Of a DNA stretch of 64,000 bases, positions 3,727 to 4,950 are shown one piece after another. The stretch spans positions 41,155-105,154 of the forward strand of contig CALVOX010000001.1 in assembly GCA_944350425.1 (NCBI GenBank), in the 5' to 3' direction. This DNA comes from an uncultured Bacilli bacterium (GTDB taxonomy: Bacteria; Bacillota_I; Bacilli_A; RFN20; CAG-826). Made by a program: the position numbers and the translations under genes. The notes below the pieces were generated by a model, which made no database searches, was not told the origin of the DNA, and saw only the letters and a program-made list of their open reading frames with translations. Position 1 is the stretch's first letter. Each line of letters starts with the position of its first letter.

Positions 3727-4950
3727 TTATTGTCCTCCTTCATAATAATATTTATCTAAATTTTTTGTATTAGAACTAACATAATTAGAATAAGTTTCTA
3801 AATAATTAACTTGATAGATATTTCCATTCATTCCAGGAATAATTTTTCCAACAACAATTATTAAATCAGGTTCAATTTGTTTTTTCATTTCATTAAAACC
3901 ATTCAAAAAATCATCTTTATTTTTTTGGATACCGATAGTTGATATGCAAACCGTTGAATGCTTTTCAACGCCTCTAAAGCAAAACTGATAAGACACTAGG
4001 TTTGACCATGAAATAGTAGGAATAACCCTTAACCCAAATGTTTGCCAAAGAACCCCAATCCATCTGTTTCTAAAAATGTTGTACACCATTTGTGGTTTGC
4101 TCATATTTGGATAAATACTATAATCTGGCGTGCAAACGCCATAGAAACCGTCGAAAAGTGCACAATATTTAAGTGGATTTCTCCAATAAGATTCAAGTAA
4201 TTTATCATCTTTAAAAGTAGTAAGTATTGCATTGTCTCTACTGTCAATATTTTTAAAATTCGTAATTGAAGTAATTAATGTATTTTTGTAAAAAATATCA
4301 TTAAAGTTTTCCTTTTTTATGATTGGAATGCAATAATCATCAACATTTTTATCTAATACAGGTCTTAACAAAAGAAAATTTTCATAATTATTATTCATTT
4401 TGTACCTCCTTAGTAAGTAATGACAGAGAAATTCTTTTTCGATGCTTGATAAATTTAAATGCATATAAATCATTCTATTCGTTATTGCATTCAAAGCATT
4501 TCTAGACGCAGCAATAGATAACCCAAATCTTTCTGAAATAATATTTGGAGAAAGTACATAATCAAACAACAGTAAAACAGGAGGAGCTAAAAGAACTCTA
4601 GAGAAGTGATCTGCATAAACATCGCATAATCTTGTCTCCTCTATATCGCAAAAAATATAGTGTTTTAATTCGTGACCTAAAGTAAAGGATTGTGTTTGAA
4701 TCGGCAAATTATCATTTATATAAATTGAAAAATTTTTATGAATTGATAAGGAAAAACCATTTTCGATTTTTGAATAGTAAGGTAATGTTTTTAGATCAAA
4801 ATCAATATTTGAAAAGAAAAACACTTTAATTCCCATTTTTTTGCATAATTCAAAAAGGTCAATTTTGTCAGTAAATAACTCATAGTCTATTCTTAATTGA
4901 TATGCATTTTTATCAATTATCTCATAGTCCATTCTATTTTTTATCTCCAA
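3727..4950 (-). CDS. ImmA/IrrE-family (COG2856) zinc metallopeptidase fused to an uncharacterised ~270-aa C-terminal domain
   Basis: N-terminal LGHELKHYIFCD…DVYADHFSRVLLAPP is the HEXXH-containing ImmA/IrrE motif. The remaining roughly 270 aa (…WIGVLWQTFGLRVIPTISWSN…VCISTIG…) is not recognisable to me and may be DUF4417-like. The gene overlaps the upstream XRE gene by 17 nt. Confidence 0.7.
   Translation of the reverse strand: MEIKNRMDYEIIDKNAYQLRIDYELFTDKIDLFELCKKMGIKVFFFSNIDFDLKTLPYYSKIENGFSLSIHKNFSIYINDNLPIQTQSFTLGHELKHYIFCDIEETRLCDVYADHFSRVLLAPPVLLLFDYVLSPNIISERFGLSIAASRNALNAITNRMIYMHLNLSSIEKEFLCHYLLRRYKMNNNYENFLLLRPVLDKNVDDYCIPIIKKENFNDIFYKNTLITSITNFKNIDSRDNAILTTFKDDKLLESYWRNPLKYCALFDGFYGVCTPDYSIYPNMSKPQMVYNIFRNRWIGVLWQTFGLRVIPTISWSNLVSYQFCFRGVEKHSTVCISTIGIQKNKDDFLNGFNEMKKQIEPDLIIVVGKIIPGMNGNIYQVNYLETYSNYVSSNTKNLDKYYYEGGQ

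What the first reader, a model, noticed from the sequence alone, without database searches (positions are those of the whole stretch)
3727..4950. ImmA/IrrE peptidase fused to a large uncharacterised C-terminal domain
Canonical ImmA/IrrE proteins are small single-domain proteases that cleave their partner XRE repressor. Here the HEXXH domain occupies only about the first 130 aa of a 407-aa protein. The remainder is Trp/Cys-containing and Asn/Tyr-rich, and is possibly DUF4417-like. It may be a sensor or effector domain that couples a signal to repressor cleavage.
Basis: partly seen in the sequence, partly recalled or inferred. Interest (0 to 1): 0.6.

Follow-up and report, generated by a model that had tools for sequence, protein, structure and literature searches.

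The report
ImmA peptidase fused to neighbouring DUF4417 gene
The long ORF is real, but it is a species-specific in-frame merger of two neighbouring genes (an ImmA-like anti-repressor peptidase and a DUF4417 enzyme-like protein) from a widespread, undescribed five-gene cassette, so the added domain is more likely regulated cargo than a sensor for the protease.

Summary
Window 3727-4950(-) encodes a Peptidase_M78 (HELKH) domain followed by DUF4417 (Pfam E=8e-39). The likely start is the ATG at 4932, giving 401 aa.

The "sensor domain" reading is not supported. In 29 loci from Clostridia, Bacilli, Erysipelotrichia and Saccharibacteria, the two parts are separate adjacent genes. They belong to a conserved cassette: XRE, M78, a 95-330 nt spacer, DUF4417, A and B. 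A fused form was found only in the window's species. An exhaustive HMMER search of 1.84 billion proteins showed no other fusion among its top 150 hits.

The fusion keeps DUF4417's own Shine-Dalgarno site and ATG at Met185. Within the species the locus is decaying. Two assemblies carry a +1 frameshift that splits the ORF again. One MAG has deleted XRE, M78 and the DUF4417 N-terminus.

Most likely the XRE/ImmA pair switches on a nucleic-acid-acting DUF4417-A-B cargo.

Side finding: in relatives, a covarying hairpin element brackets DUF4417-A-B. It is absent from the window.

The parts
5263..5290 (-). Best sigma-70-like promoter match (TTGCAA-16-TATAAT) just upstream of the XRE gene. Probable operon promoter and operator region.
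   Evidence: 10 of 12 matches, the top-ranked site. Sequence. Consensus match only; function is inferred.
4934..5242 (-). XRE-family HTH repressor gene (102 aa), the presumed partner and substrate of the peptidase.
   Evidence: Pfam HTH_3 E=4.5e-12. PADLOC capH 1.1e-7 and RmrA 3e-10. NCBIfam RstR-like. Conserved as the first gene of the cassette in related loci.
3727..4932 (-). Fused M78-DUF4417 gene (401 aa from the ATG at 4932; the mechanical ORF from the TTG at 4950 gives 407 aa).
4399..4932 (-). ImmA-like Peptidase_M78 part (178 aa). It is full length compared with free-standing homologues.
   Evidence: Pfam PF06114. phrog_87 E=5.7e-14 over residues 7-193. Alignment to the L010 190-aa M78 protein. 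Consensus of 26 cassette M78 proteins.
4660..4674 (-). HELKH zinc-binding and catalytic motif (residues 93-97 in 407-aa numbering).
   Evidence: HE..H is at least 90% conserved in cassette M78 proteins.
4544..4546 (-). A3 run (CCAAAT). Assemblies L005 and L006 have A4 here, a +1 frameshift that truncates M78 to 143 aa and splits the ORF.
   Evidence: DNA alignment. Gene calls. P0121 sequence.
4396..4411 (-). Internal Shine-Dalgarno AAGGAGG (4405-4411), a 6-nt spacer, and the ATG of Met185 (4396-4398). This is the native translation start of DUF4417, retained inside the fused ORF.
   Evidence: Free-standing DUF4417 homologues begin at this position.
3730..4398 (-). DUF4417 part (223 aa). Modelled as a compact TIM-barrel-like alpha/beta domain, and all family-invariant residues are present.
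3350..3724 (-). Gene A (124 aa, starts MGGRGSF, seven invariant His). A conserved partner of DUF4417 in cassettes and in phages.
2985..3353 (-). Gene B (122 aa). It overlaps A by 4 nt, is found in the chromosomal cassette, and gave no match in the phage collection.
   Evidence: No phage tblastn match. Present in only 2 of 56 viral loci.

Best explanation
The ORF is a lineage-specific, in-frame fusion of two adjacent genes of a conserved cassette: XRE, M78 (ImmA-like), a structured spacer, DUF4417, A and B.

Shown:
- In 29 related loci M78 and DUF4417 are separate genes.
- In the window's species the M78 stop codon and the whole spacer are gone. The M78 homology runs to within about 4 codons of DUF4417's own SD and ATG.
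- The species carries further decay alleles: a frameshift and a 1,050-bp deletion.

Inferred mechanism:
- The XRE protein represses the operon from the promoter at about 5263-5290.
- The M78 part acts like ImmA, CapP or IrrE and cleaves XRE on a stress or infection signal.
- DUF4417, A and B are the regulated output, not a sensor.
- DUF4417 is an enzyme with a TIM-like barrel. Invariant Asn, Asp, Ser and Thr residues lie at or just after the C-terminal ends of successive predicted strands. It probably acts on nucleic acid, by base exchange or excision like TGT/DpdA, or by another DNA or RNA modification.
- This fits its ParB fusions in phages and, in two annotated phages, its position beside the terminase genes together with A.
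- In the fused allele both a 401-aa fusion protein and a free 223-aa DUF4417 (from Met185) are probably made.
For: Domain content.

Separate genes in relatives: L010; 34 genome loci; L047; L050.

Spacer of 95-330 nt.

Uniqueness of the fusion: only P0001; only P0121; 2,165 HMMER hits among 1.84e9 representatives, no two-domain hit in the top 150; the two 'two-stretch' hits are tandem DUF4417 proteins.

Internal SD and ATG.

Decay alleles.

M78 integrity: HE..H is conserved, and an acidic residue lies 13 residues later in an E-x-x-A-x-x-F context (D110 here).

XRE/M78 as a repressor/protease switch: ImmR/ImmA, DdrO/IrrE and CapH/CapP (10.1101/2022.04.27.489752; PMC6868357). There are weak capH/capP PADLOC hits.

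ParB association. This parallels ParB-like DpdB working with DpdA (PMC10164549; PMC6392294).

Phage position upstream of terS, with A.
Against: No biochemical datum exists for any part.

The TGT resemblance is weak:
- Foldseek against PDB finds nothing at E<=0.001. The best hit is TGT at E=0.038, TMq 0.38.
- hhalign against E. coli Tgt gives probability 0.2%.
- A profile search of PDB sequences finds nothing.
- No CxCxxC...H zinc motif is evident.

The conserved M78-DUF4417 adjacency, and the fusion itself, are also what a functional partnership (the sensor reading) would give.

The third zinc ligand is Asp instead of the usual Glu. Pfam matches only the first 55 positions of the M78 profile.

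The species-level decay suggests the fused allele may no longer be under selection. The pN/pS values of 0.24-0.61 rest on very few substitutions and settle nothing.
Confidence: 0.6

Rival explanations
1. Sensor or effector-coupled protease. DUF4417 senses a signal, such as a nucleic-acid species or a nucleotide, and activates the fused ImmA domain to cleave XRE. It would play the role that the GAF domain plays in CapP/IrrE.
For: M78 lies immediately upstream of DUF4417 in 29 loci across phyla. A gene fusion is a classical hint of physical or functional interaction. CapP and IrrE do use extra domains for activation.
Against: DUF4417 is far more often found without M78: in 492 phage records, as ParB fusions, and alone. 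The fusion occurs in only one species. The spacer, with its own SD-masking leader, separates the genes everywhere else. The pattern of invariant residues looks enzyme-like. The frameshift alleles keep DUF4417 intact while destroying M78.
Confidence: 0.12
2. Neutral or degenerative fusion. The cassette is decaying in this species, the fusion is one step of that decay, and the fused protein has no selected function of its own.
For: Three allelic states exist in one species: fused (window, L001), frameshifted (L005, L006), and a 1,050-bp deletion removing XRE, M78 and the first 56 aa of DUF4417 (L011). The second cassette copy in L005 has a degraded DUF4417. The regulatory spacer and both hairpin elements are lost. 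The window assembly also carries a frameshifted Macro gene next door.
Against: Both domains keep every invariant or catalytic residue. pN/pS is below 1 in both halves, though on few substitutions. The reading frame is intact over 1.2 kb in an AT-rich genome.
Confidence: 0.25
3. Sequencing or assembly artefact that joined two ORFs.
For: The window has at least one single-base indel relative to all sister assemblies, in the Macro gene at about 2634.
Against: The stop-less junction is identical in four independent assemblies. The A3 run that keeps the frame open is shared by the window and L001, and it restores homology to the C-terminus of free-standing M78 proteins.
Confidence: 0.02

Closest known systems
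ImmR/ImmA of Bacillus subtilis ICEBs1 and phage phi105 (XRE repressor plus COG2856/M78 anti-repressor protease)
   Same: There is a short (about 180 aa) HEXXH peptidase encoded directly downstream of, and co-oriented with, an XRE-family repressor, in the order repressor, protease, then downstream genes (background).
   Different: Here the protease is translationally fused to the next gene. No integrase or excision genes follow. The signal (RecA or RapI in ICEBs1) is unknown. Cleavage has not been tested.
CapH/CapP (and DdrO/IrrE) DNA-damage-responsive regulators of immune and repair operons
   Same: An HTH repressor plus M78 protease pair sits in front of a cargo operon. There are weak PADLOC hits to capH (1e-7) and capP (5e-4).
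   Different: CapP and IrrE have HTH-like and GAF domains, and CapP has a cysteine-switch loop that senses ssDNA. This protein has neither. Its extra domain is DUF4417. The cargo is not a known defence system.
Phage ParB-DUF4417 fusion proteins (phrog_940; ParB-CTPase fold fusions)
   Same: The same DUF4417 domain, 30-40% identical. These are also two-domain proteins with DUF4417 at the C-terminus.
   Different: The N-terminal partner is a ParB-like NTPase/nuclease domain rather than a peptidase. In the annotated examples they are encoded beside terminase genes in phage genomes. Their function is also unknown (bioRxiv 10.1101/2025.10.10.680097).
DpdA/DpdB and tRNA-guanine transglycosylases (TGT fold)
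   Different: DUF4417 is about 200 aa, against 370 or more. There is no zinc subdomain and no detectable sequence or profile similarity. Foldseek is not significant. No preQ0 synthesis genes were noted nearby.
HTH-M78 single-chain regulators (RmrA / spr1629-type XRE-COG2856 fusions)
   Same: They show that neighbouring genes of this regulatory module do fuse. One viral contig (L062) has a 382-aa XRE~M78 fusion in front of DUF4417-A.
   Different: That fusion joins repressor and protease. The window joins the protease to the first cargo gene.

Membership tests
Peptidase_M78 / ImmA-IrrE (COG2856) | Significant match to the family profile | tested here: met
   PF06114 scores 28.6 bits against a cut-off of 22, but covers only profile positions 1-55 of 123. 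phrog_87 metallo-protease E=5.7e-14 over residues 7-193.
Peptidase_M78 / ImmA-IrrE (COG2856) | HEXXH zinc-binding and catalytic motif | tested here: met
   HELKH at residues 93-97. It is invariant in cassette homologues.
Peptidase_M78 / ImmA-IrrE (COG2856) | Third zinc ligand (Glu) downstream of HEXXH (E129 in CapP) | tested here: inconclusive
   Cassette M78 proteins have a conserved E 13 residues after the second His, in an E-x-x-A-x-x-F context. The window has Asp (D110) there. The spacing differs from CapP and IrrE, and no structure was made for this part.
Peptidase_M78 / ImmA-IrrE (COG2856) | Adjacent gene for a cognate XRE-family repressor | tested here: met
   The XRE gene at 4934-5242(-) ends 2 nt before the peptidase ATG.
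Peptidase_M78 / ImmA-IrrE (COG2856) | Site-specific cleavage of the partner repressor | not testable with these tools
   This needs an in vitro or in vivo cleavage assay.
IrrE/CapP subtype | Central HTH-like domain and C-terminal GAF domain | tested here: not met
   There is no GAF or other Pfam hit besides M78 and DUF4417. The peptidase part is only 178 aa. The architecture is as described.
DUF4417 (PF14386) | Profile match above the gathering score, with family-invariant residues | tested here: met
   133.4 bits against a cut-off of 28.9, profile positions 5-175 of 183. The invariant N47, D65, P91, S94, N107, Q119, P127, T128, W131, S153, G156, G167 and P177 are all present.
TGT / DpdA transglycosylases | TIM-barrel fold closest to TGT | tested here: inconclusive
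   [not shown]
TGT / DpdA transglycosylases | Sequence or profile similarity to TGT (PF01702) | tested here: not met
   No Pfam TGT hit. hhalign of the DUF4417 alignment against E. coli Tgt gives probability 0.2%. The PDB profile search is empty.
TGT / DpdA transglycosylases | C-terminal zinc-binding subdomain (CxCxxC...H) and catalytic Asp pair in equivalent positions | tested here: inconclusive
   The domain ends after about 200 residues, and I did not see a CxCxxC motif in the sequence printed (by eye, no pattern search run). Invariant D65 and near-invariant D92 lie at or just after the ends of predicted strands, but model coordinates could not be superposed on TGT.
CapH/CapP-regulated defence operon | Cargo is a recognised anti-phage system | tested here: not met
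   PADLOC gives no hit for DUF4417 or B, and only a marginal KwaB hit (E=0.0035) for A.

The most novel reading that the evidence does not exclude
The five-gene cassette is an undescribed inducible system. In it, a miniature transglycosylase-like TIM-barrel enzyme (DUF4417), with a His-rich partner (A) and an acidic partner (B), acts on a specific nucleic-acid hairpin or on DNA.

In unfused relatives the DUF4417-A-B module is bracketed on both sides by a covarying hairpin. The hairpin has an invariant 7-nt, anticodon-loop-like loop (Y-T-R-C-C-R-R) and is followed by a second hairpin. The 3' arm of that second hairpin can mask the DUF4417 SD and AUG.

These elements could be the enzyme's substrate or autoregulatory site. 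Alternatively they could be the ends of a mobile cassette, which would fit the A-B-DUF4417 circular permutation in L002 and the insertions at unrelated chromosomal sites.

On this reading, the window's fusion would be a natural 'Rosetta stone' that ties the ImmA switch physically to this enzyme.
Probability: 0.15. Interest if true: 0.75.

Novelty: new variant of a known kind. Interest (0 to 1): 0.4.

Why it matters
As a protein architecture, the fusion is a one-species curiosity. It should not be read as a new class of signal-sensing ImmA protease.

Its value is as a pointer. It led to a compact cassette (XRE, ImmA, leader, DUF4417, A, B) that is conserved across Firmicutes and Saccharibacteria from metagenome-assembled genomes. 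No paper in the searched literature discusses this cassette. DUF4417 appears in only four papers, always as 'unknown'.

It also led to a testable idea for DUF4417, a domain found in 492 phage records. The idea is that DUF4417 is a TGT/DpdA-like nucleic-acid-modifying enzyme that pairs with ParB-type NTPases.

If that idea is confirmed, it would assign a function to a widespread phage domain and add a new cargo type to ImmA/CapP-style inducible operons.

Tried and rejected
- **PDB sequence searches.** The full protein, the M78 part, the DUF4417 profile and the A profile gave nothing usable.
- **NCBIfam.** No hit for the fused protein.
- **PADLOC.** Only weak regulator hits.
- **hhalign of DUF4417 against E. 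coli Tgt.** Negative. This is a weak test because the template was a single sequence.
- **pN/pS between strains.** Too few substitutions to be informative.
- **Rfam on the spacer element.** No family at gathering score. An E-value search of one locus (L030) found only chance snoRNA hits elsewhere in the region. The first Rfam call failed on its size limit.
- **XRE operator reading of the hairpins.** Rejected, because the stems differ between the two copies in one locus while the asymmetric loop is conserved.
- **SD-masking test.** Significant (z<=-2) in 7 of 19 spacers (L012 borderline at z=-1.86). My fixed cut point split the hairpin in some other loci.
- **Not done.** A structure prediction of the full-length fusion was not run, because both prediction jobs went to the DUF4417 and A domains.

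Full report
**1. The observation**

Window 3727-4950(-) is an uninterrupted ORF of 407 codons from a TTG start. The XRE gene upstream (4934-5242) ends with TAG. Two bases later there is an ATG at 4932 with a GGAG upstream, so the likely product is 401 aa. That is the length of P0001, a 96%-identical protein from an independent metagenome assembly.

Pfam finds two domains:
- Peptidase_M78 at residues 36-100 (28.6 bits, cut-off 22).
- DUF4417 at residues 204-377 (133.4 bits, E=8e-39).

PHROGs adds a metallo-protease family over residues 7-193 and two DUF4417-containing families. HELKH lies at residues 93-97. One detail needs correcting: the peptidase part extends to about residue 184, not about 130.

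**2. What the ORF is**

*The fusion is confined to one species.*
- A word-indexed search of 5.8 billion proteins found only P0001 with both domains. All other hits were free-standing DUF4417 proteins of about 230 aa, or ParB+DUF4417 proteins of about 350 aa.
- A search with the N-terminal 199 residues found only P0121, a 143-aa protein.
- An exhaustive HMMER search of 1.84 billion cluster representatives gave 2,165 hits. None of the best 150 matched both halves. The two 'two-stretch' hits are tandem DUF4417 proteins.

*In relatives the two halves are neighbouring genes.*
- The context of a 43%-identical DUF4417 (L010) reads: XRE (103 aa), M78 (190 aa), a 107-nt gap, DUF4417 (232 aa), a 132-aa gene, and a 112-aa gene.
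- A scan of one genome per species returned 34 loci. I built HMMs from the window and the first loci and searched all ORFs.
- With L047 and L050 added, all five genes are recognisable in 24 loci.
- An M78 gene lies immediately upstream of DUF4417, as a separate ORF, in 29 loci.
- By their record titles, the hosts are Lachnospiraceae, Oscillospiraceae, Ruminococcus, Christensenella, other Clostridia, Erysipelotrichia, Bacilli and three Saccharibacteria MAGs.
- The window's M78 part aligns end to end with the free-standing proteins. DUF4417 homologues start at the residue equivalent to Met185.
- The window ORF is therefore two cassette genes joined head to tail, with the M78 stop codon and the 95-330 nt spacer missing.

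*The junction keeps a translation start.* Inside the fused ORF, a perfect AAGGAGG lies 6 nt before the ATG of Met185 (4405-4411 and 4396-4398). DUF4417 can therefore probably still be translated on its own. This is an inference.

*The locus is polymorphic and decaying within the species.*
- The window and L001 carry the fused allele.
- L005 (a 213-kb scaffold with the same synteny) and L006 have one extra A in the run CCAAAT (window 4544-4546). The frameshift truncates M78 to 143 aa and leaves a 223-aa DUF4417 starting at the internal ATG.
- The in-frame A3 version restores homology to other M78 C-termini, so it is the older state.
- L011 is the GTDB representative of what appears to be the same species, labelled 'uncultured Bacilli bacterium' and 97% identical. 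It has a 1,050-bp deletion running from the promoter region into DUF4417 codon ~57. That removes XRE, M78 and the DUF4417 N-terminus but leaves A and B intact.
- L005 also carries a second, partial cassette (degraded DUF4417, intact A and B) as a 1,766-bp insertion exactly between the ygjP-like and spoU genes, which overlap in the window.
- pN/pS between strains is below 1 for every part, but it rests on a handful of changes.

*Artefact is excluded.* The stop-less junction is identical in four independent assemblies.

**3. The parts of the cassette**

*XRE and M78.*
- The XRE protein matches HTH_3, and weakly matches capH, RmrA and RstR models.
- The M78 part keeps HE..H.
- Cassette homologues have a conserved Glu 13 residues after the second His, in an E-x-x-A-x-x-F context. 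The window has Asp110 at that position. Whether this residue is the third zinc ligand is inferred, not shown.
- There is no GAF or HTH-like domain, so the protein is ImmA-like rather than IrrE/CapP-like.
- The best promoter-like site of the region (TTGCAA-16-TATAAT, 5263-5290) lies directly upstream of XRE.

*DUF4417.*
- AlphaFold2 with an 84-sequence alignment gave pLDDT 88.3 and pTM 0.86, with alternating strands and helices.
- Residues N47, D65, P91/D92/S94, T128/W131 and S153/G156 are invariant apart from D92, which is ≥90% conserved. They lie at or just after the C-terminal ends of successive predicted strands, where TIM-barrel enzymes have their active sites. This is inferred.
- Foldseek also ranks TGT first, but not significantly (E=0.038, TMq 0.38).
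- There is no Pfam, hhalign or PDB-profile similarity to TGT.
- I therefore treat 'TGT-like' as a lead, not as membership.
- A circumstantial parallel exists. In phages DUF4417 is typically fused to a ParB-type domain. DpdA needs the ParB-like ATPase DpdB (PMC10164549). In mycobacteriophage CRB2, ORF1 and ORF2 are a putative DpdB homologue and a DpdA-like protein (PMC6392294). DUF4417 likewise maps to gene 1 or 2, within the first ~1.3 kb, of many of the mycobacteriophage genomes listed, although a few carry it near gene 110-117.

*A and B.*
- A (124 aa) starts MGGRGSF and has seven invariant His.
- A follows DUF4417 in the cassettes. It also follows DUF4417 in streptococcal and Dorea phages, where the pair sits directly upstream of the small terminase gene (compare). 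It is present in 23 of 56 viral loci.
- The model of A (pLDDT 82) is all-beta with a C-terminal helix. It has no convincing structural neighbour.
- B (122 aa) is essentially confined to the chromosomal cassette.
- A and B stay intact where DUF4417 decays. They may therefore function, or be retained, independently of DUF4417. This is an inference.

*Genomic setting.*
- In the window the cassette lies among housekeeping genes: glycogen phosphorylase, a Macro-domain gene, CBS, an ECF riboflavin transporter component, ygjP-like, spoU and ftsZ. No integrase is present.
- I scanned 100 ORFs, the two nearest on each side of the cassettes. Five were large serine recombinases and four were tyrosine integrases. 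Most of the rest were housekeeping or restriction genes.

**4. Most likely mechanism**

This follows from the established behaviour of ImmR/ImmA, DdrO/IrrE and CapH/CapP.
- XRE represses the operon, and the M78 protease inactivates XRE on a stress or infection signal.
- DUF4417, A and B are the output.
- DUF4417 is probably an enzyme acting on nucleic acid.
- In the window's species the fusion ties the first cargo protein to the protease. The internal start site probably still yields free DUF4417.

The sensor reading is less likely for three reasons. DUF4417 is mostly found without any M78. It is separated from M78 by a regulatory spacer everywhere else. Its conserved residues look catalytic. 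The reading is not excluded, because the M78-DUF4417 adjacency is very conserved.

**5. A side finding outside the window**

In unfused cassettes the M78-DUF4417 spacer holds a stem-loop with a nearly invariant 7-nt loop (CTACCAA; consensus Y-T-R-C-C-R-R) and fully covarying stems.
- In an 11-sequence alignment, 84% of cells pair, against 52% in shuffles. All 12 pairs change on both sides. The covariation score is 0.91, against 0.29 for shuffles and <=0.20 when the partners are slid.
- Caveat: I selected these sequences for having a stem around the loop motif, so the pairing percentage is inflated.
- A covariance model of this hairpin, searched over 875 kb including the window, hit only cassettes. 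The hits were in the spacer and at a second copy right after the stop codon of B, on the gene strand.
- The second copy lies 0-20 nt after B in eleven loci. In L014 and L041 it is about 300-380 nt downstream.
- A longer second hairpin follows. Its 3' arm is also complementary to the DUF4417 SD and AUG. The duplex has z<=-2 in 7 of 19 spacers, and the MFE folds show the alternative pairing.
- Rfam has no matching family.
- The window, L005 and the phage loci searched lack the element. The fusion removed it from the window's species.

Its meaning is open. It could be an RNA leader and terminator pair, a set of protein-binding sites, a substrate for the enzyme, or the ends of a mobile cassette.

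**6. Comparison and novelty**

The regulatory half is a member of the ImmA/M78 family by profile, motif and gene neighbourhood. It is not of the IrrE/CapP subtype. The C-terminal half is a member of DUF4417. Membership in the TGT family is not established.

The fusion is a new but narrow variant. The cassette and its hairpin elements appear to be undescribed in the searchable literature, where DUF4417 occurs in four papers, always as a domain of unknown function.

**7. Verdict**

The fused architecture is a species-specific, possibly decaying merger of two neighbouring genes, so it is of modest interest in itself. The cassette it belongs to is a reasonable target for experiments.

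Noticed in passing
L014 5856-5890 and 7790-7824; L017 5861-5895 and 7425-7459; L030 5863-5897 and 7424-7458; L027 5828-5862 and 7406-7440; L026 2371-2405 and 3950-3984; L050 4933-4967 and 6511-6545 (no copy in the window): A covarying stem-loop with an invariant 7-nt loop (CTACCAA; Y-T-R-C-C-R-R, resembling an anticodon loop) occurs twice per cassette. One copy lies in the M78-DUF4417 spacer and one after gene B, so the pair brackets DUF4417-A-B. The stems differ between the two copies of one locus. Rfam has no match. In L012 the upstream copy is on the opposite strand.
   Followed up: partly
Spacers upstream of DUF4417, e.g. L040 5823-5985, L039 279-406, L010 4894-5000, L016 5780-5967: A second, longer hairpin follows the first. 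Its 3' arm is also complementary to the DUF4417 SD and AUG, which is the layout of a translational on/off leader. The duplex is stronger than shuffles (z<=-2) in 7 of 19 spacers.
   Followed up: partly
window 2527-3002 (+), indel at about 2634: The Macro-domain gene is split (53 aa plus 117 aa) by a 1-nt deletion relative to L001, L005 and L011, which encode an intact 158-aa protein. It is either a pseudogene or an assembly error in the window.
   Followed up: yes
L005 2608-4373, corresponding to the empty site at window about 8555-8560: A sister strain has a 1,766-bp insertion exactly between the overlapping ygjP-like and spoU genes. The insertion holds a degraded DUF4417 and intact A and B. 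The spoU flank is only 90% identical, against 97% elsewhere, which suggests import by recombination.
   Followed up: partly
L011 about 5990-6010, corresponding to window about 4230-5280: The GTDB representative MAG that appears to be the same species carries a 1,050-bp deletion removing XRE, M78 and the first ~56 residues of DUF4417. A and B stay intact.
   Followed up: yes
L002 7052-8681: The gene order here is A, B, spacer, DUF4417, a circular permutation of the usual order. It sits downstream of an SSB gene, with no XRE or M78. Copies of the hairpin-2-like sequence (..ATAATGATTC[CT]CTAGACAA..) lie before A and between B and DUF4417.
   Followed up: partly
[not shown]
   Followed up: partly
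L062 5199-6347: A viral contig encodes a 382-aa ORF that matches both my XRE and M78 models, followed by DUF4417 and A. This would be a different fusion within the same cassette. It was not checked with Pfam.
   Followed up: no
window 9569-10864 (+): An AAA_14/DUF4143 ATPase gives a strong PADLOC PDC-S01 hit (E=4e-108). The gene is present in the window, but this stretch has no BLAST match in the sister scaffold L005, so it is a second variable, defence-candidate locus nearby.
   Followed up: no
P0297-P0300 (homologues of A); P0156 and P0199 (DUF4417): Some A homologues carry the N-terminus of an IS200-like transposase in frame, which probably reflects IS insertions. Two DUF4417 proteins contain the domain twice in tandem.
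   Followed up: no
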